Source: a virus. From it: a stretch of 64,000 nt of DNA. The translations under genes and the position numbers were made by a program. Positions 10,308 to 49,702 of the stretch are shown here, piece by piece; position 1 is the stretch's first letter; each line of letters begins with the position of its first letter. Below the pieces are notes generated by a model that saw nothing but the letters and a program-made list of their open reading frames with translations, was not told the origin of the DNA and searched no databases. The DNA lies in the IMG/VR virus record IMGVR_UViG_3300023049_000574, positions 32,001 through 96,000 of that record; one strand, 5' to 3'.

Positions 10308-11068
10308 AAAAGATAAGAAAATCAGTATTTGAAACAAATAGTTCTAGTTCCCACGTGCTTCATATCGATGAAGAAACAGAACTAATGGACATATCACTTG
10401 TGCCTAGAGAAGATGGGGTGATAGAAATAACGCCTTCTGATGACTATGGTTGGGAATGGGAAAAGTATAATACGGCTAGAGAGAAAATTATGTATTGTAT
10501 CGTAGACCAAGGGGATAACAATAACTATATGGATATGCTCAAAGAAGTCATCAAAAATCAGACAGGAGCTAAAGAAGTTATTCTACATACTGACCATGAT
10601 TGTTATTTAGATCACGAAAGTGTGGGTACATCACAAAGAGCATTTAACTCCAAGAGCTTACTAAGAAATTTTATTTTCAATAGGAAGTCTGCTGTTTTCA
10701 CAGGTAATGATAATGGTGATCCTGAACCTGAGTTCTATTGTGATAAATACACAGCACCATATAAAATCAGATTGGTGAGTTTGGTAGAATTAAGAGATAA
10801 TCTAATAAATTCAGTTGTTGGTGAAGAAAAAGAAGTGGAGTCAGTAAATGAGTGGATGTATACTTTAAACAAGCCTGAAAACGATTATAATTGGTCAGAT
10901 GATTACATACCCTTTCTAAAAGATTTTGTAGGTACTAGTCCTTGGCTGCGTAATTATGATAGTGAAAATAAGACTATCGAAATCACTGCGGGTAATGACG
11001 GGAGTGTAATTAAATATAAAGTTCAGGTTGAATTAAACGAGGAAAAAAATGAATCTATTCCAATATAA
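10304..11068 (+). CDS. FETNSSS-motif protein, radical-SAM associated
   Basis: N-terminal IRKSVFETNSSSSH, later YLDHES and TGNDN. Confidence 0.7.
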   Translation: MKKIRKSVFETNSSSSHVLHIDEETELMDISLVPREDGVIEITPSDDYGWEWEKYNTAREKIMYCIVDQGDNNNYMDMLKEVIKNQTGAKEVILHTDHDCYLDHESVGTSQRAFNSKSLLRNFIFNRKSAVFTGNDNGDPEPEFYCDKYTAPYKIRLVSLVELRDNLINSVVGEEKEVESVNEWMYTLNKPENDYNWSDDYIPFLKDFVGTSPWLRNYDSENKTIEITAGNDGSVIKYKVQVELNEEKNESIPI

Positions 11069-11924
11069 AAACGGAAACACATTTGTAACGATTAAGGAAG
11101 ATGGTACAAAGATCAGGGAATATGACTCTGATCCTTGTCCATCTTTTCCTGAATCTATGGATATTAAGATAACAAACTATTGTTCTCTTTCTAATTATTG
11201 TAAATGGTGTCATGAGGCATCTGATACTAATGGTAAACACGCTGATCTAGATTTCGTGATCACTAAGTTAAATGAACTACCTAGTGGTGTTGAACTAGCT
11301 ATTGGTGGCGGTAATCCATTAGATCATCCTCAGTTAGAAGAATTTTTGACTAAGGTTAGAGATCTTGGTATTATTGCTAATATTACTGTTAACCAACTTC
11401 ACGTTAAGAAGCATTTTGGTCAGATCGTTGACCTAATTGAAAACGATTTGATTAAAGGTCTTGGTATTAGCTATAATGGCAATAATATAAAGGAAACTAA
11501 AGCTTTAGTTAAGATGACTAATAATGTAGTATTCCATGTTATCGCAGGTGTTAATACATTACAAGATCTTCAAGACATCTCTGAAATACATAATAAGGTA
11601 TTGGTACTAGGATATAAACAATTCAGAAAAGGAGAGAAATATTTTTCTGATGCTGTCCAAGATAATATTGATCAGTGGTATAGGAGGCTTCCATTATTTT
11701 TCAAGAAACTTATTATCAGCTTTGATAATCTAGCAATTACCCAATTAAACCTAAGAAGGTATTTCACTGATAAGAGTTGGGAAACCTTTTATATGGGCGA
11801 TGACGGAACATTCACATATTACATTGATGCCGTAAATAAAACATATGGGAGGAATTCTACTTCTAGTGAAACTTTTGATCTGACTACTAAATCTATAAAA
11901 GAAAGTTTCGGAGAGTTTACTTAA
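11049..11924 (+). CDS. Radical SAM protein
   Basis: PESMDIKITNYCSLSNYCKWCHE (CX5CX2C), AIGGGNPL, NITVNQ. Confidence 0.88.
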   Translation: MNLFQYKNGNTFVTIKEDGTKIREYDSDPCPSFPESMDIKITNYCSLSNYCKWCHEASDTNGKHADLDFVITKLNELPSGVELAIGGGNPLDHPQLEEFLTKVRDLGIIANITVNQLHVKKHFGQIVDLIENDLIKGLGISYNGNNIKETKALVKMTNNVVFHVIAGVNTLQDLQDISEIHNKVLVLGYKQFRKGEKYFSDAVQDNIDQWYRRLPLFFKKLIISFDNLAITQLNLRRYFTDKSWETFYMGDDGTFTYYIDAVNKTYGRNSTSSETFDLTTKSIKESFGEFT

Positions 11925-14116: not shown

Positions 14117-15973
14117 ATGTGGGAAGGTGTAATAATATTAGCTGCGATAGCTTTCATTTTCGATGGTATAAAGGTACTTATAGAATCATATAATGAACCT
14201 ATTAAATATGAAGGTAAGAGAAATAAAAAAGAAACAACAGCAGTAGTTTCAGTATATAATAGCCTAGATATATTAGAATCAATAGATTCAATAAAAAGAG
14301 AATTCGGTTCTATTATTATTATAAATGATGGTAGTAATGATGGAACAGAGGATATCTTATTTAATATGGGTAAAACTATAGACAAAGAAGAAACACCATT
14401 TGGTTGGTTATATACTAAGAAATACAAGCGAATGAATATTAAACTTTTATTCAATAAAGAGAATAAAGGTAAAGTCAATTCTATACATAGCGGATTAGAA
14501 TATGTAGACACTAAATATGTATTTATATGTGATGATGATATAAAGTTATCGGAAGACTTCGAACTACCTGTTTCATTATTAGAATCTGATCAAGCAGATG
14601 CGGTTTCATTCTTTGTTTTACCTGAACCTAATAATAGCAAGCTGTGGTACAACCTACAACTTCATGAATATATCAAGTCTATGCAAATAGGTAGACGATA
14701 TGCAGCTAACTCTAAAACAGTTGAATGTGTATCAGGTTGTTCGGGTTTATTTAAAACAGAAAGGATACAAAAATTCTCAAAGGAACATAGTTCGAAATGG
14801 GAAGGAGAAGACTTAGAAAGAACATTAATAGAACTAACACATGGCGGTAGAATAGTTTATTCTGAACAATTAATATTTACTGATGTGCCGAAAACTTTTA
14901 TATCATTAGCTAAACAACGTATATTCTCGTGGTGGGGTGGGTTATATAGAAACTTTGGGTTGTTCTTAAAAATATTAAGATCAAAGAAACAACCATTAAG
15001 ACTTCGTTTAGAAGTGTTATACAACATCATTAGTTTAATATTAGATCCGATTAAATTATTTTCTTTGTTATATATGCTATATACACTTAATTGGGTATCA
15101 ATAACTACAGTGTATATAATATACGCATACTTTGAATCGTTTATGTGGGAAACCTATTCAACCGAAACTAAATATAAGCCACATTCGACATACACATTAA
15201 TATATCCGTTTTATGGTTTTTTCCAATTAATATTCAGAGCATTAGCAGGTTTGTATATGTTAAAGAACTATATGGATAAAAAACTTTTAACTACTTTAAT
15301 AACAATATTCATATCTTCTGTTCCTTTATTGGCTCAACAAGATAGTGTTGAAGTTAAACAAGATAGTGTTGAAGCTAAACCTGATTGGACTATATCATAT
15401 AATCATGCTCAGTACGGATTTGATAATGAAATAGGATCTCCTAATAATAATCTTTATGTGGGTTGGAGAAATTATTATGCATCTGTTAACAACGGGTTGT
15501 TTGATCAAGTAATGATTGGAACATATTATAAAAGGTTTCAGTTTGATATTAGTGTGGGTAGGGAAGTGATTATACCAACTTTAAGATATGAACAATGGTT
15601 TGGTGATAATACCCTTATGGCGATGGCTCGGTATAACCAAGGATATAATGGTATAAACACAAACTTATATCCAAATACTTCATTAACAAGTGTTGGTTAT
15701 GGTATGTATAGGGGGAATAATTTCTATTCATTAGAAATTATGCAAGAATTCGAAAGGGAATATGCTACTACATTAATTGCAACAGTGAAACAAGAAATAT
15801 TGAATGATTTCAGATCGAAAAGTAAAATATTTGTGAACAATAAAAAAGATTATGTACTCTCACAAGCATTTGAATATAAGATATTTGGATTAGGTTATAT
15901 ATACCACACAGATTTTGACTTCACGGGTAGAGAATTGAGTTGGATTAACGGATATGTTACTGTTAAATTCTAG
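14117..15973 (+). CDS. Processive GT2 glycosyltransferase fused to internal signal peptide and outer-membrane beta-barrel-like domain
   Basis: NDGSND, NKGK, DDD, SGCSGLFK, GED, QRIFSW, TM helices; then MDKKLLTTLITIFISSVPLLAQQ and an aromatic/Gly-rich domain ending YVTVKF. Confidence 0.8.
   Translation: MWEGVIILAAIAFIFDGIKVLIESYNEPIKYEGKRNKKETTAVVSVYNSLDILESIDSIKREFGSIIIINDGSNDGTEDILFNMGKTIDKEETPFGWLYTKKYKRMNIKLLFNKENKGKVNSIHSGLEYVDTKYVFICDDDIKLSEDFELPVSLLESDQADAVSFFVLPEPNNSKLWYNLQLHEYIKSMQIGRRYAANSKTVECVSGCSGLFKTERIQKFSKEHSSKWEGEDLERTLIELTHGGRIVYSEQLIFTDVPKTFISLAKQRIFSWWGGLYRNFGLFLKILRSKKQPLRLRLEVLYNIISLILDPIKLFSLLYMLYTLNWVSITTVYIIYAYFESFMWETYSTETKYKPHSTYTLIYPFYGFFQLIFRALAGLYMLKNYMDKKLLTTLITIFISSVPLLAQQDSVEVKQDSVEAKPDWTISYNHAQYGFDNEIGSPNNNLYVGWRNYYASVNNGLFDQVMIGTYYKRFQFDISVGREVIIPTLRYEQWFGDNTLMAMARYNQGYNGINTNLYPNTSLTSVGYGMYRGNNFYSLEIMQEFEREYATTLIATVKQEILNDFRSKSKIFVNNKKDYVLSQAFEYKIFGLGYIYHTDFDFTGRELSWINGYVTVKF
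15338..15379 (+). repeat. 21-bp tandem duplication (QDSVEVK/QDSVEAK)
   Basis: caagatagtgttgaagttaaa caagatagtgttgaagctaaa. Confidence 0.85.
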
Positions 15974-16451
15974 AACAGTTTGTTATTATTAATTCATCTC
16001 TTAGAAAAAAGGTATCACCACTATATTTGATTATATTGAAATCCTTATATAATTCTCTGATAAATTTACAGTCTTGATAAGATAAGAAAAACTCACCCTT
16101 TATGCCCTTTAAAACATTTCTTAGTTCTGTGTGGAATACACCATCACCCTTTATTAAATCGTATAGATGTTCTTTGTTATAGTACGGTGGGTCTAAATAA
16201 AACACAGTTTGTTCTGAATCAAATTCAGCCATCACTTTTTTGTAGTCTTGGTGCGATTTGATATCTGCTTCTATATCAAAATCATATTGGTGTATATCAT
16301 TATACACAAGAGTGTCAGGTCTATTCTCTAAATAAGTAGACATATTAAATGTGCCACCAAATGGCTCAACATATGTTTTGATATTTTTTGGTAAATATTC
16401 TTTTAGGAAATCAGTGTAATGTGGTTTTCTTTTTTCGCCTACTAGTTTCAT
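15963..16451 (-). CDS. Minimal Dam/D12-class DNA adenine methyltransferase
   Basis: YVEPFGG, VYND, FYLDPPYY, ELIITN; only 162 aa. Confidence 0.8.
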   Translation of the reverse strand: MKLVGEKRKPHYTDFLKEYLPKNIKTYVEPFGGTFNMSTYLENRPDTLVYNDIHQYDFDIEADIKSHQDYKKVMAEFDSEQTVFYLDPPYYNKEHLYDLIKGDGVFHTELRNVLKGIKGEFFLSYQDCKFIRELYKDFNIIKYSGDTFFLRDELIITNCSRI

Positions 16452-46483: not shown

Positions 46484-49400
46484 ATGCAAAATTCGTTTAT
46501 ATCCATATCTGAACAGATCGTAAATTACAATAATAATGTATTAGATCTGCTTTCACAATTAAATTCTGTTTTCGTTTCATCCAATGAAAGTGTACAAGTA
46601 AATTTCACTGATGAAAACAGAAACTTAGCAACATATGATGTTCCATCTTGGGGATATCTACAAAGAGAGATCCAAAGAATGAACACTAATATAAATACTC
46701 TTTTCGCAATAGATGAAAATGGCGCAGAAATACAAACTGCTGAAAACGTATGGAGAAAGATAGTATTAGTAGATTTAAACGAAGAGCCAAATCAAATCCA
46801 ATCATTAGATAATATCAACGTATTTGAATCAAGAAGAAATCACTTTTTTGATGCTTTATTAAATCCTAGTTTAACCATAAGACTTGACTTAACGGATAAA
46901 GTTCAGTCTAATGTAAGACAAGTTTTAGTAAGAAGATACATAGTAAATTTTGACAAAAATCCTGATGGGTCTTTTACTAACAACGGACAAGTGGGATTAG
47001 ATAGTTTTAATTCTCAATTCAGAGGACAGAATGATATAAACTTTGGGGATTTCTTAGAGTGGTATGAAACTACGCCAGGTGTGAGTAACCCAACTACTCC
47101 ATATTTTGATCAAGAAACGTTTGATTTAGATCCTAACCAACCTTTATATGATGGTATATTCACAGTATTCAATACACAAGAAGATACTATTAACAAAAAA
47201 CTTTTCTATGTTTTCAACACAATCAATTATACGATTACGACAACAGGTGAAGAAAGGGAATTAGTAGTGGGTGATAGGCTTGTAATTAATCGTGAAAAGA
47301 CAAATACTATTTATGAAATTGACGAAGTATCTAAAGCAGATACTAATCCAAAATTAGTTCTTAGAAGAATCCAAGGTAATGAAATAGTGCCTATCGGTGA
47401 GGGAACGATGAAGGCTTACGGTCCTAGCACGGAGACAAAAACATTAAACGTTACAATTGGATATAATGAAAGAAACGTAATTTTTGTTAAACCTATTAAT
47501 GCTGAAAGTTATGTAATAGCTAAAAATTGGTCATCAGGTGTAGGATACTATACCAATGATCTTAATTTAAGTAGTAATAATAGTGATAATGGTAAGACAA
47601 TGGATGAATACTATACTAATAAAGTTAGTGATTATGGACTTGCTATTAAGGATTTAGTTCAAACTAAAACACCATTAGAACTTGGTAGGTTACCAAACAG
47701 AACCGTCTTATTAACAGACAACTTTAAGGTAGTTCAGATCAACAAACATTTAACAAACAATTTAGATAAAAAAGAAATAACTAATAGATTCAATCAAATG
47801 AACACTCTTAAAAATGAGTTAAACCAAATTGATAAATCAATAAGTAATAAAATGACAAAAATGAGGGTCGCTACTTTCAAATCAGATAACGAAAGAAGAA
47901 CTGCTGAAAGAGAGTTGAATGACTTAACTCAGAGAAAATCAAATAAATCGGAATTACTAAGAAGCACATCAAACGAGATCATAACATTAAGTAATGATCC
48001 AAATAGTTTAACAAAGGCTGCTCCTAAATTTAGAGTTAGGGGGTTTTGGGATATTCCTGAACCTAGATTAGTTAGAGGAACTAGACCACAGGAAGTAGTA
48101 CAATTCAAGATACAATATAGATATCTATCTTTAGCAGGTGAGGAAAGTGCTATTGAAACTTTCAAATTACAAAATGCTGATGGAACAGATGCGAATAATG
48201 CGGTTTTCTCAAATTGGGTAACAGTATTTTCTGATGTTAGAGAGAGGGTATTTAATGAAGATACGGGAATATACGAATGGCAGATTCAGGACGTTAGCGA
48301 AGCTGATACTCCTAATATCAACCAATTAGATATACCTATACAAAGTAGCGAAAGAGTAGAGATAAGAGTTAAGTCTTTATCAGAAGTAGGGTATCCTGAG
48401 AATCCACTAGAAAGTGATTGGAGTGAGATATTTACGATTGACTTTCCTGAGGATTTATCTTCGGTAGCAGGTCAAGATGACTTCATATTAAAAGAAGCAG
48501 ATAAACAAGATACTATAGTTCAACTAAGAAGCCAACTTGGTAATGTAGATGAACATTTAAATGATCAAACAACTGTTAATGATACTACTTATTGGCATAG
48601 TACTGATACTATATTAGCACTTATACCTGATGGTAGTGGAAACCAACAATCATTATTGAATTATTTGACTGCTCTTCAAGATAGATTAACATCATTAGAA
48701 GAACAATTAAATAGAACGAGAGGTATACTTCAAGTATATGTATACAGAGGTGATGAAGCTTTCTTAGTTAAAAACGATACAGAAGTTCAATTTAATGTTG
48801 AGTGTGAAGATTACTTAGATAAATATGATGAGGATAGTACGGTTACGGGTAGAGTATATAGAAACAATGTTTATACAATTAAAGATTTCTATGTAGAGAT
48901 ACAAAACGCATCGTCATCTTCTCCGTTGGGATTACTTAGTGATAAGACATATAACACAAACAATCCTACTGTATATAACCAAAATTCACCACAGATATTT
49001 TGGGTAAATGATAGAGATGAGTTAATATTTAACACAAGTACGGGTGCTACTAGAACACAATTAGATTTCCAATACACGTGGTCAGTGAATACTGATAGCG
49101 GTAACAACAGTAACAATTCTACTAAATTAGCAGAAAATATAGGAAATCAATTTACGATAGATAGTTCTAATTCGATTACTAGTGTATTAGCATCGACTGA
49201 ATATAACATTGGATATAGTGAAAACACAATATTAGAATTTAACAATAACAATAATTCATTATTAGATCTTAATAAGTGGGTAGATGATTCACCTACTGTG
49301 AATAGTGCATCTAAGCTTCTTACGTCTGTTCACCCAAGTGTACAGAATTTAGAGGATATTGTAGAAAATAATAGCGATAAAGTTAGAACCTTTAATGCGG

Positions 49401-49702
49401 GAGATAGTTTAATATTACCTCTTAATATTTACTTTAAAATGAATGCTTTAGATCCTAACGATGGTACAGGTAAAGATTATACTTATGTAGATTTAAATAA
49501 CTTATCTACAACAACAAGACATATTAAGAGAGTTAAAATTTTATTAGAAAATGAGGCTGAAAATAAACCTTTTATATTCAGAATTCGATTCACTATTAAT
49601 AGAAATAAAGTAGTAGTTCAAAAACTTGGACAGAATAATCAGTTGAGTCAGGTGAGTCAGTTTACATTCAGACCCTTTAATCCTGGTGCGGGTGGACAAT
49701 AA
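46484..49702 (+). CDS. Large putative virion structural protein (1072 aa)
   Basis: N/T/S-rich beta regions plus central coiled coil; upstream TATATATA. Confidence 0.55.
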   Translation: MQNSFISISEQIVNYNNNVLDLLSQLNSVFVSSNESVQVNFTDENRNLATYDVPSWGYLQREIQRMNTNINTLFAIDENGAEIQTAENVWRKIVLVDLNEEPNQIQSLDNINVFESRRNHFFDALLNPSLTIRLDLTDKVQSNVRQVLVRRYIVNFDKNPDGSFTNNGQVGLDSFNSQFRGQNDINFGDFLEWYETTPGVSNPTTPYFDQETFDLDPNQPLYDGIFTVFNTQEDTINKKLFYVFNTINYTITTTGEERELVVGDRLVINREKTNTIYEIDEVSKADTNPKLVLRRIQGNEIVPIGEGTMKAYGPSTETKTLNVTIGYNERNVIFVKPINAESYVIAKNWSSGVGYYTNDLNLSSNNSDNGKTMDEYYTNKVSDYGLAIKDLVQTKTPLELGRLPNRTVLLTDNFKVVQINKHLTNNLDKKEITNRFNQMNTLKNELNQIDKSISNKMTKMRVATFKSDNERRTAERELNDLTQRKSNKSELLRSTSNEIITLSNDPNSLTKAAPKFRVRGFWDIPEPRLVRGTRPQEVVQFKIQYRYLSLAGEESAIETFKLQNADGTDANNAVFSNWVTVFSDVRERVFNEDTGIYEWQIQDVSEADTPNINQLDIPIQSSERVEIRVKSLSEVGYPENPLESDWSEIFTIDFPEDLSSVAGQDDFILKEADKQDTIVQLRSQLGNVDEHLNDQTTVNDTTYWHSTDTILALIPDGSGNQQSLLNYLTALQDRLTSLEEQLNRTRGILQVYVYRGDEAFLVKNDTEVQFNVECEDYLDKYDEDSTVTGRVYRNNVYTIKDFYVEIQNASSSSPLGLLSDKTYNTNNPTVYNQNSPQIFWVNDRDELIFNTSTGATRTQLDFQYTWSVNTDSGNNSNNSTKLAENIGNQFTIDSSNSITSVLASTEYNIGYSENTILEFNNNNNSLLDLNKWVDDSPTVNSASKLLTSVHPSVQNLEDIVENNSDKVRTFNAGDSLILPLNIYFKMNALDPNDGTGKDYTYVDLNNLSTTTRHIKRVKILLENEAENKPFIFRIRFTINRNKVVVQKLGQNNQLSQVSQFTFRPFNPGAGGQ

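What the first reader, a model, noticed from the sequence alone, without database searches (positions are those of the whole stretch)
14117..15973. Single-ORF polysaccharide synthase plus outer-membrane barrel with an internal signal peptide
Seen: residues 1-385 form a processive GT2 (D, DxD, GED, QRxxxW-like, TM helices; PgaC/YaiP/hyaluronan-synthase-like). At Met386 (ATG 15272) a typical Sec signal peptide begins (MDKKLLTTLITIFISSVPLLA-QQ). It is followed by a duplicated QDSVE(V/A)K spacer and about 200 aa of alternating aromatic/Gly strands ending YVTVKF, a BAM beta-signal-like terminus. Established: synthase-dependent exopolysaccharide systems normally encode the inner-membrane synthase and the outer-membrane porin separately (PgaC/PgaA, YaiP/YaiO, NfrB/NfrA). 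Inference: a minimal phage-encoded glycan export machine made as a polyprotein split by signal peptidase, or by internal initiation, which may coat the infected cell for superinfection exclusion or receptor masking.
Basis: partly seen in the sequence, partly recalled or inferred. Interest (0 to 1): 0.8.

Follow-up and report, generated by a model that had tools for sequence, protein, structure and literature searches.

The report
Phage sugar-polymer synthase fused to porin
A large uncultured phage carries one gene that joins an inner-membrane sugar-polymer synthase to an outer-membrane pore through an internal export signal; the two parts are separate neighbouring genes in many soil bacteria, so this looks like a two-part polysaccharide export machine made as a single precursor that is probably cut in two.

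Summary
ORF 14117-15973 (618 aa) is uninterrupted. Residues 1-385 form a hyaluronan/chitin-synthase-like processive GT2. Residues 386-406 look like a Sec signal peptide, and residues 424-618 are predicted with high confidence to form a 14-strand barrel whose nearest structures are all outer-membrane barrels.

The fusion is not an artefact: about 19 distinct, divergent fused relatives keep the same junction. About 98 distinct relatives in diderm phyla (Eisenbacteria, Acidobacteriota, Nitrospirota, Deltaproteobacteria) have the same two parts as adjacent genes, and there the barrel has its own N-terminal signal peptide. Fused and split forms interleave in the window's own subclade.

Most fused relatives have no Met at the junction and almost no linker. 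Signal-peptidase cleavage is therefore the best family-wide mechanism, but it is inferred, not shown. The window's own Met386 leaves internal initiation possible here.

The barrel family has no Pfam or NCBIfam model and is not YaiO.

One result was unexpected. The other fused copies whose surroundings could be read lie mostly in chromosomes of Patescibacteria, which have signal peptidase I but no BamA. What a lipid-facing barrel does in those cells is unexplained.

The phage's relatives point to a Bacteroidota host. Its role in infection is untested.

The parts
14117..15973 (+). Whole ORF, 618 aa plus stop: synthase, internal signal peptide and barrel
   Evidence: Fused relatives cover 99-100% of its length at 32-39% identity.
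14120..14188 (+). N-terminal transmembrane helix (residues 2-24), followed by a positively charged loop (5 K/R)
   Evidence: AF2 helix 2-24. Kyte-Doolittle hydropathy peak of 2.41 and loop charges.
14234..14881 (+). Cytoplasmic GT-A glycosyltransferase domain (residues about 40-255). It holds DDD 139-141 (14531-14539) and GED 230-232 (14804-14812).
   Evidence: PF00535, E 1.8e-14. Invariant columns. Foldseek hits to Chlorella virus hyaluronan synthase 7sp8 (E 4e-15), Xenopus HAS1, BcsA and chitin synthases.
14915..14935 (+). QRIFSWW motif (residues 267-273) in the interface helix. It is a variant of the Q(R/Q)xRW motif of processive synthases, with W one residue further from Q.
   Evidence: Q267, R268, W272 and W273 are invariant in nine relatives. 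AF2 helices 261-278 and 280-288.
14996..15160 (+). Two transmembrane helices (residues 294-322 and 326-348) with invariant D310 and K313; likely channel-forming
15203..15271 (+). Last synthase helix (residues 363-385, conserved YPxYGxxQLxFR). Its tail is positively charged, and the synthase-only relatives end exactly at this tail.
   Evidence: Whether it crosses the membrane or lies at the interface is not resolved.
15272..15334 (+). Internal Sec-type signal peptide (residues 386-406, MDKK-LLTTLITIFISSVPLLA). Predicted signal peptidase I cut after Ala406, exposing Gln407.
   Evidence: Sequence features are shared by 17 fused relatives: net-positive n-region, 12-20 residue h-region, small residues at -1/-3. 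The segment aligns with N-terminal signal peptides of stand-alone barrels. pLDDT is low here in both models.
15332..15380 (+). 21-bp tandem duplication encoding QDSVEVK/QDSVEAK: a linker found only in this sequence
   Evidence: Absent from relatives.
15386..15970 (+). 14-strand beta-barrel (residues 424-618) ending in YVTVKF
   Evidence: AF2 pLDDT above 90. VIA-align Z 18.2/18.0/17.4 to 3dwo, 6gie and 2f1c. One strand face is 66% hydrophobic with 2 charged residues; the other is 37% hydrophobic with 13 charged. The same faces hold in 17 relatives.

Best explanation
The ORF encodes, as one precursor, both parts of a minimal synthase-dependent polysaccharide secretion system.

The N-terminal 385 residues form an inner-membrane processive GT2 synthase of the hyaluronan/chitin-synthase type. 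It should polymerise a nucleotide sugar from the host pool and thread the chain across the inner membrane. The polymer is probably hexosamine-containing, but that is inference.

The positively charged tail of the synthase stays in the cytoplasm. The next 21 residues act as an internal Sec signal peptide and carry the C-terminal part across the membrane. Signal peptidase I then cuts after Ala406. The signal helix stays on the synthase, and a 212-residue barrel protein starting with Gln is released. That start fits the Bacteroidota habit of a Gln (converted to pyroglutamate) after the cleavage site.

The host BAM machinery would insert the 14-strand barrel into the outer membrane, where it serves as the exit pore for the polymer.

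Shown by computation: domain identities, the predicted fold, conservation of the junction, and the existence of split two-gene forms. Inferred: cleavage, localisation, that synthase and barrel work together, the nature of the polymer, and any benefit to the phage (the best guess is a surface coat on the infected cell).
For: Domains: GT2 with all catalytic motifs invariant. The full model is closest to Chlorella virus and Xenopus hyaluronan synthases, BcsA and chitin synthases.

Barrel: pLDDT 85, 14 strands, Z 17-18 to 14-strand outer-membrane barrels. It has a lipid-type outer face, defined on the window sequence and confirmed in 17 relatives at 68-82% hydrophobic.

Same parts as two genes: an iterated HMM finds the barrel directly downstream of the synthase gene in 107 loci (98 distinct), with N-terminal signal peptides. 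Direct profile-profile homology between the phage-clade barrel and the Eisenbacteria barrel gives probability 91.6%, E 8e-7, over 178 columns. In Deltaproteobacteria the pair is flanked by guaA and IMPDH, so it is a self-contained two-gene unit.

Fused and split forms interchange. The tree needs at least 2-3 changes between them. In the window's own subclade (support 97-99), synthase-only proteins end exactly at the junction (P0006, P0008). They share contig lengths with stand-alone barrels that start with a signal peptide followed by Gln (P0017, P0015).

Cleavage rather than tethering or internal start: h-regions are 12-20 residues long and followed by small residues. Only 2 of 17 fused relatives have a Met in the n-region. 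In most relatives the first barrel strand starts within about 0-8 residues of the predicted cut, too short to span a periplasm.

Host: Gln follows the predicted cut in 11 of 17 fused forms and in the stand-alone barrels of the phage clade. This matches the Bacteroidetes Q-rule (PMC5837995). Relatives of the phage's 1072-aa protein lie in Prevotella, Tenacibaculum, Chryseobacterium and Flavobacterium phages and in 634-735 kb huge phages.
Against: Nothing shows cleavage, localisation or polymer production, and no dedicated signal-peptide or topology predictor was available.

The parity of membrane crossings is unresolved. Helix 363-385 is flanked by loops that are both positive in the phage clade but acidic on the N-terminal side in some relatives. 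The cytoplasmic placement of the n-region therefore rests on the positive-inside rule and on homology with N-terminal signal peptides.

Fused forms also sit in Patescibacteria chromosomes that lack Omp85/BamA. The outer-membrane pore reading therefore cannot hold for every fused member, which weakens it as a family-wide explanation.

The QRxxxWW motif departs from the canonical QxxRW spacing.

The system has no periplasmic scaffold (TPR), no deacetylase and no c-di-GMP receptor, all of which known systems of this kind have.

The host assignment is indirect. The TAnnTTTG promoter element is not enriched: 84 found against 91 expected.
Confidence: 0.6

Rival explanations
1. Internal initiation. 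In this phage the barrel is made mainly as a separate protein, by translation starting at Met386 (ATG 15272). The full-length fusion is minor or irrelevant, so the gene is effectively two overlapping cistrons in one frame.
For: Met386-Asp-Lys-Lys sits where stand-alone barrels start (MKK.., MTR..). Bacteroidota-type translation does not need a Shine-Dalgarno site, and the sequence upstream is A/T-rich. Split relatives in the same subclade show that the barrel works as a separate protein.
Against: Only 2 of 17 fused relatives have any Met in the n-region, so this cannot be the family's mechanism. No promoter-like or ribosome-binding signal above chance lies before 15272. Ribosomes translating the synthase would still produce the fusion.
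Confidence: 0.15
2. Uncleaved signal anchor. Residues 386-406 form a permanent last transmembrane helix, and the barrel stays attached on the outer face of the cytoplasmic membrane, acting as a vestibule or cap over the synthase channel. This might be the state in Patescibacteria, which have no outer membrane.
For: Fused forms occur in genomes without BamA. The linker is very short in most relatives, so the barrel would sit directly on the synthase. The fusion is kept over long divergence (20-40% identity).
Against: The barrel's outer face is lipid-like in all members and would be unstable in water. The h-regions are short, mostly 13-18 residues, and are followed by small residues as in cleavable signals. 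All five Patescibacteria genomes encode signal peptidase I. Split forms with ordinary secreted barrels interleave with fused ones.
Confidence: 0.12
3. The barrel is not a glycan pore. It is an outer-membrane protein with another job (general porin, adhesin anchor, phage-receptor decoy), linked to the synthase only for co-expression.
For: A 14-strand fold alone shows no function. The best structural matches transport lipids, sugars or nothing specific. No periplasmic coupling domain is present.
Against: The synthase-barrel pairing is kept across at least six phyla, in about 100 split and about 19 fused forms, and the barrel was found only next to this synthase family in the loci fetched. An exhaustive search of 1.8 billion representatives found only 10 barrel relatives, 6 of them fused.
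Confidence: 0.08
4. Artefact: the fusion comes from an assembly or sequencing error that removed a stop codon between two genes.
For: Split forms exist in the same subclade, so a single lost stop codon would produce this ORF.
Against: The junction is identical on a second contig (P0013). About 19 distinct fused relatives have open junctions. GC content equals that of the genome.
Confidence: 0.02

Closest known systems
PgaCD/PgaA, NfrB/NfrA and YaiP/YaiO of E. coli (synthase-dependent exopolysaccharide systems)
   Same: An inner-membrane processive GT2 is paired with an outer-membrane beta-barrel encoded in the same locus. NfrB/NfrA is described in PMC8669472. The yaiO, yaiP and yaiS genes lie together in K-12.
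   Different: Those parts are always separate proteins. PgaA and NfrA have large TPR domains and 16-strand-type barrels, and the systems carry c-di-GMP receptors and deacetylases. Here none of these is present, the barrel has 14 strands and about 200 residues, and the two parts are fused. In sequence it is not PgaC (37 bits against a cut-off of 422), is only generically similar to YaiP (24% identity, E 1e-12), and is not YaiO (hhalign probability 1.5%).
Chlorella virus hyaluronan synthase (PDB 7sp8) and chlorovirus chitin synthases
   Same: It is the best structural match of the synthase half (Foldseek E 4e-15). It is also a virus-encoded processive GT2 that makes the infected cell extrude a polymer (the second point is from general knowledge).
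   Different: The host is eukaryotic and no outer-membrane component is needed. There is no significant sequence match to any solved structure. Chloroviruses also carry sugar-precursor genes, and none was found here.
Bradyrhizobium FbcH cytochrome b/c1 precursor (from memory: Thony-Meyer and colleagues, around 1989-1991; not found in the paper library)
   Same: A bacterial polytopic membrane protein is fused to a secreted partner through an internal signal peptide, and the partner is released by signal peptidase.
   Different: Both FbcH products stay at the inner membrane. Here the released part would travel to another membrane. The proteins are unrelated.
Phage-encoded outer-membrane barrels (lambda Lom; cyanophage Phage_OMP PF24653) and the small cellulose-locus barrel BcsS
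   Same: These are small beta-barrel proteins carried by phages or sitting in synthase loci. The language-model search for the barrel gave BcsS, Phage_OMP, DUF6733 and KdgM as the nearest named clusters (scores 0.91-0.94).
   Different: These are leads only. No Pfam family matches the barrel at E up to 1. None of these proteins is fused to a synthase.

Membership tests
Membrane-integrated processive GT2 synthases (HAS / chitin synthase / BcsA / PgaC class) | GT-A domain with a DxD nucleotide-sugar/metal site and a (T/G)ED catalytic base | tested here: met
   PF00535, E 1.8e-14. D139/D141 and G230-E-D232 are invariant in nine relatives.
Membrane-integrated processive GT2 synthases (HAS / chitin synthase / BcsA / PgaC class) | Q(R/Q)xRW motif on an interface helix | tested here: inconclusive
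   QRIFSWW is invariant at Q, R, W, W and lies on AF2 helix 261-278. However, W lies at Q+5/Q+6 rather than Q+4.
Membrane-integrated processive GT2 synthases (HAS / chitin synthase / BcsA / PgaC class) | Transmembrane helices after the GT domain, with an overall fold like solved synthases | tested here: met
   AF2 pLDDT 84, helices 294-322, 326-348 and 363-385. Foldseek hits to 7sp8 (E 4e-15, TM 0.57 by target), 8smm and 4p00.
Membrane-integrated processive GT2 synthases (HAS / chitin synthase / BcsA / PgaC class) | Makes and translocates a polymer | not testable with these tools
   Needs expression and glycan analysis.
PgaC/IcaA (TIGR03937) | Score at or above the curated cut-off | tested here: not met
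   37 bits against a cut-off of 422.3. Bacterial split-form synthases score 49-58 bits.
YaiO outer-membrane barrel family | Sequence or profile similarity to E. coli YaiO | tested here: not met
   hhalign of the C-domain alignment against YaiO gives probability 1.5%. No Pfam hit.
Outer-membrane beta-barrel proteins | Closed, even-numbered, all-antiparallel barrel | tested here: met
   14 strands, pLDDT above 90. Z 18.2 (3dwo), 18.0 (6gie), 17.4 (2f1c), with rmsd 2.6-2.9 over 171-193 residues. This is a predicted structure only.
Outer-membrane beta-barrel proteins | Hydrophobic lipid-facing surface and polar lumen | tested here: met
   By alternation within strands: 66% against 37% hydrophobic and 2 against 13 charged residues. 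The same faces in 17 relatives give 68-82% against 24-39%.
Outer-membrane beta-barrel proteins | Sec signal peptide before the barrel and an aromatic C-terminal beta-signal | tested here: met
   The signal is internal here and N-terminal in stand-alone relatives. Terminal F is nearly invariant in the fused clade. The diderm split forms instead end in a short tail after the last strand.
Outer-membrane beta-barrel proteins | BAM-dependent insertion into, and residence in, an outer membrane | not testable with these tools
   Five Patescibacteria genomes with fused forms have no Omp85 match, so this cannot hold for all members.
Synthase-dependent exopolysaccharide secretion systems (Pga, Bcs, Alg, Pel, Nfr) | Periplasmic TPR scaffold, polymer-modifying enzyme and c-di-GMP receptor alongside the synthase and porin | tested here: not met
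   Neither half has such a domain. No polysaccharide deacetylase is present in the 145-kb phage record. The Deltaproteobacteria pairs are flanked by housekeeping genes.
Signal peptidase I substrates (Bacteroidota Q-rule) | n/h/c regions with small residues at -1/-3, and Gln at +1 | tested here: met
   MDKK / 17-residue h-region / L-L-A | Q-Q. Gln at +1 in 11 of 17 fused relatives and in P0015-P0017. The rule is described in PMC5837995. Actual cleavage was not tested.

The most novel reading that the evidence does not exclude
The fused form is native to monoderm Patescibacteria, and phages acquired it from them (or the reverse). Cells with no outer membrane and no BAM would then make a secreted barrel with a lipid-type surface, coupled to a polysaccharide synthase. 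The barrel might insert into the membrane of the host cell these episymbionts attach to, or into an undescribed outer layer of their own. In that case the gene is a one-polypeptide, BAM-independent device for exporting a glycan or contacting a host, not just a compact Pga-like system.
Probability: 0.25. Interest if true: 0.85.

Novelty: new variant of a known kind. Interest (0 to 1): 0.72.

Why it matters
Known synthase-dependent polysaccharide systems need several proteins: synthase, co-polymerase or c-di-GMP receptor, TPR scaffold and a large porin. This work finds a much smaller unit, one GT2 synthase plus a barrel of about 200 residues and 14 strands. It is widespread in little-studied phyla, and its barrel family has no Pfam or NCBIfam model.

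The fused version would be a rare bacterial or phage case of a polyprotein that signal peptidase splits into an inner-membrane enzyme and an outer-membrane pore. That makes it a compact, portable cassette for testing how a polymer crosses two membranes with no scaffold.

In a phage it parallels chlorovirus hyaluronan synthase and suggests that some huge phages change the surface of the cells they infect.

Its presence in Patescibacteria, which lack BamA, raises a concrete and testable question about the envelopes of those organisms.

Tried and rejected
The neighbours of the Logan proteins P0006-P0011 and P0015-P0017 could not be read. The pairings P0006+P0017 and P0008+P0015 rest only on equal contig lengths and counts.
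- Megablast of 20 kb of the window against cultured-phage records gave no match. tblastn of the whole protein against phages hit only the GT2 part, in two Staphylococcus phage records.
- Two scans of IMG/VR, one with synthase motifs and one with barrel motifs, found only one other viral record, UViG_3300000563_000005. A wider barrel alignment was too divergent to give search patterns.
- The synthase half has no sequence match in the PDB.
- Host assignment from the TAnnTTTG promoter element was rejected as evidence: 84 sites against 91 expected. The sigma-70 and terminator scan around the gene was below chance.
- The Q-rule could not be tested on the phage's other secreted proteins: too few have signal peptides (6 with a loose rule, 0 with a stricter one). 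A crude test on 400 kb of the Paceibacterota genome gave Gln at +1 in 3 of 25 (12%, against 2.5% Gln overall). That is neither a Q-rule nor clearly absent, and the predictor was home-made.
- I first suspected that the Patescibacteria contigs were misbinned phage. This was rejected: ribosomal protein L2 lies on the same 598-kb contig, and the neighbours are cellular genes such as thyA, alr, ftsK, mscS and response regulators.
- Membrane topology could not be settled from hydropathy and loop charges.
- Paper searches found no description of a synthase-barrel fusion, nor of barrels in Patescibacteria.
Full report
**What is there.** The window is part of a 145.5-kb IMG/VR virus record with 30% GC, estimated 58% complete. 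Several of its large proteins match PHROG families. ORF 14117..15973 (+) is uninterrupted and encodes 618 aa. It is a lone plus-strand gene between two minus-strand genes. It overlaps by 11 bp the end of a short Dam-like methyltransferase gene (15963-16451, phrog_56). Its GC content equals that of the genome.

**The synthase half.** Pfam gives GT2 (PF00535, E 1.8e-14). NCBIfam's best hit is PgaC/IcaA at 37 bits against a cut-off of 422, so it belongs to no curated synthase family. In an alignment of nine relatives, D71, D139, D141, G230, D232 (GEDLERTL) and Q267, R268, W272, W273 (QRIFSWW) are invariant. An AlphaFold2 model of the whole protein (pLDDT 84) shows:
- an N-terminal transmembrane helix;
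- a GT-A domain;
- interface helices carrying the QR..WW motif;
- three further helices (294-322, 326-348, 363-385).

Foldseek places the model next to Chlorella virus hyaluronan synthase (E 4e-15), Xenopus HAS1, BcsA and chitin synthases. No solved structure matches by sequence.

**The barrel half.** From Met386 the sequence reads MDKK, then 17 uncharged residues ending LLA, then QQ. A 21-bp tandem duplication (15332-15380) adds a linker that no relative has. The rest folds, with pLDDT above 90, as 14 antiparallel strands. All top Foldseek hits are porins. A Foldseek-independent search gives Z 18.2, 18.0 and 17.4 to the 14-strand barrels of a FadL homologue, Omp33 and OmpG, and Z 12.3 to the PgaA barrel.

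Within strands, one face is 66% hydrophobic with 2 charged residues, and the other is 37% hydrophobic with 13 charged. I fixed these faces on the window sequence and then read them in 17 relatives. The result was 68-82% against 24-39% hydrophobic in every one. The barrel matches no Pfam, NCBIfam or PHROG family, and it is not YaiO (hhalign probability 1.5%).

**Relatives: fused and split.** A word-indexed search found full-length fused relatives at 32-39% identity, and synthase-only relatives at 36-49%. An exhaustive HMMER pass of the barrel over 1.8 billion representatives found only ten proteins. Apart from the window's own fragment and one spurious repeat protein, these are:
- five fused proteins;
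- three stand-alone barrels of 217-226 aa, which begin with ordinary N-terminal signal peptides and end in F.

Motif scans of metagenomes and of one genome per species fetched 148 loci. An HMM of the barrel, iterated on these loci, finds it fused in 21 loci and as a separate gene directly after the synthase gene in 107 loci (98 distinct barrels). These split barrels carry their own signal peptides. The split loci come from Eisenbacteria, Acidobacteriota, Nitrospirota, Deltaproteobacteria and others.

To guard against profile drift, I compared the phage-clade barrel profile directly with an Eisenbacteria barrel profile. The result was probability 91.6%, E 8e-7, over 178 aligned columns. In Deltaproteobacteria the pair lies between guaA and IMPDH, so it stands alone. 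Eisenbacteria-type loci have in addition a conserved gene of about 550 aa upstream, with no Pfam match.

**The junction.** In 17 distinct fused relatives, the segment between synthase and barrel always has a net-positive n-region and a 12-20 residue uncharged stretch followed by small residues. Gln follows in 11 of them. Only two, including the window, have a Met in the n-region. The segment aligns with the N-terminal signal peptides of the stand-alone barrels. In most relatives the first strand (the 'DW' motif) starts within a few residues of the predicted cut. An uncut protein therefore could not have its helix in one membrane and its barrel in another.

Synthase-only proteins of the window's subclade end exactly at the positive tail. 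Two of them share contig length and count with stand-alone barrels: P0006 with P0017 at 14,295 bp, and P0008 with P0015 at 3,744 bp. A maximum-likelihood tree of the synthase domain puts the diderm split forms in one clade (support 98) and needs at least two or three fused/split changes. Two of those changes lie inside the window's subclade (support 97-99).

Together these results say that the two halves work as separate proteins, and that fusion and fission at this point are tolerated. Signal-peptidase cleavage is the simplest way for the fused forms to achieve that. For this phage alone, initiation at Met386 is also possible.

**Host.** The phage's 1072-aa protein is 48-49% identical to proteins of uncultured phages of 634-642 kb. 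It has weaker relatives in Prevotella Lak phages and in Tenacibaculum, Chryseobacterium and Flavobacterium phages (23 of 31 records), plus Sphingomonas phage PAU. Gln after the cleavage site is the Bacteroidetes Q-rule (PMC5837995). None of the 73 loci that the motif scan of species-representative genomes returned carries a Bacteroidota label ('not found with this query').

**The unexpected part.** All five fused copies found in species-representative genomes are in Patescibacteria assemblies (Saccharibacteria, Campbellbacteria, Paceibacterota, Elulimicrobiales). They are not misbinned phage. In the Paceibacterota assembly the gene lies on a 598-kb contig that also carries ribosomal protein L2. 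The neighbours are cellular genes: response regulators, MscS and a P-type ATPase, and in the other assemblies thyA, alr, rsmI-like, ftsK and Wzy_C. All five genomes encode signal peptidase I, and none has an Omp85/BamA match. This agrees with the placement of CPR among monoderms (bioRxiv 10.1101/2021.05.31.446380; PMC8871954). Their barrels nevertheless keep the lipid-type outer face. I cannot explain where such a barrel goes in a cell without an outer membrane.

**Function in the phage.** The 145-kb record contains no sugar-precursor or deacetylase genes, and one other small GT2. The enzyme would therefore use host nucleotide sugars. Its structural similarity to hyaluronan and chitin synthases, together with the GED...R motif, hints at a hexosamine polymer. 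The link between that motif and hexosamine polymers is from memory. A coat on the infected cell is plausible by analogy with chloroviruses but is untested.

**Verdict.** This is a new fused variant of a synthase-dependent secretion system, built on a previously unannotated two-gene family. The scan had noted this same stretch once before, in another window (e1-5790822), and nowhere else.

Noticed in passing
L135:2235-3893, L137:2181-3956, L039:2298-3932, L031:2265-3920 (all + strand): In Eisenbacteria-type loci a conserved gene of about 550 aa ends just before the synthase gene on the same strand. It has no Pfam match. It may be a third component of the cassette.
   Followed up: partly
L082:1-2099 (G005:C1:266972-269070): In the Paceibacterota chromosome, two camelysin/TasA-like genes (PF12389) and a weak signal-peptidase S26 match lie 2-4 kb upstream of the fused gene, with a Bro-N domain gene in between. 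The arrangement recalls the Bacillus sipW-tasA matrix operon and may mark an extracellular-matrix locus.
   Followed up: partly
L010:6107-6925 (- strand): A second copy of the junction plus barrel lies on the opposite strand at the contig end, and its printed stretches (junction, signal peptide, C-terminus) match the tail of the fused gene at 1172-2974. It is either an inverted duplication or an assembly artefact.
   Followed up: no
window 46484-49702: This 1072-aa protein (phrog_29329) is 48-49% identical to proteins of uncultured phages of 634-642 kb (LR745206, LR756502). It has weaker relatives in Lak and Flavobacteriia phages. The phage therefore belongs with the huge-phage lineages, and the record may be well under 58% complete.
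   Followed up: partly
window 15963-16451 (-) and 11049-11924 (+): A 162-aa Dam-like DNA methyltransferase (phrog_56, motifs FGG and DPPY) overlaps the end of the synthase-barrel ORF by 11 bp. A radical-SAM/Fe-S oxidoreductase (phrog_16999, E 3e-59) lies 2 kb upstream.
   Followed up: no
G000:C1:137133-137555 (outside the window): A second, small GT2 gene (open frame 252 aa, 25.6 bits) is present in the same phage record.
   Followed up: no
G005:C1:1-400000 (L151-L170): With a crude home-made predictor, Gln follows the predicted signal-peptide cut in 3 of 25 Paceibacterota proteins (12%, against 2.5% Gln overall). By eye several more read A|Q. This may be a mild preference for Gln at +1 outside Bacteroidota.
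   Followed up: partly
Atlas cluster of 711 aa, Gemmatimonadota: The nearest language-model cluster to the whole protein (score 0.95) is a 711-aa 'chitin synthase/GT2' family. Only its first 386 or so residues align structurally, so it may be another synthase with a different C-terminal addition.
   Followed up: no
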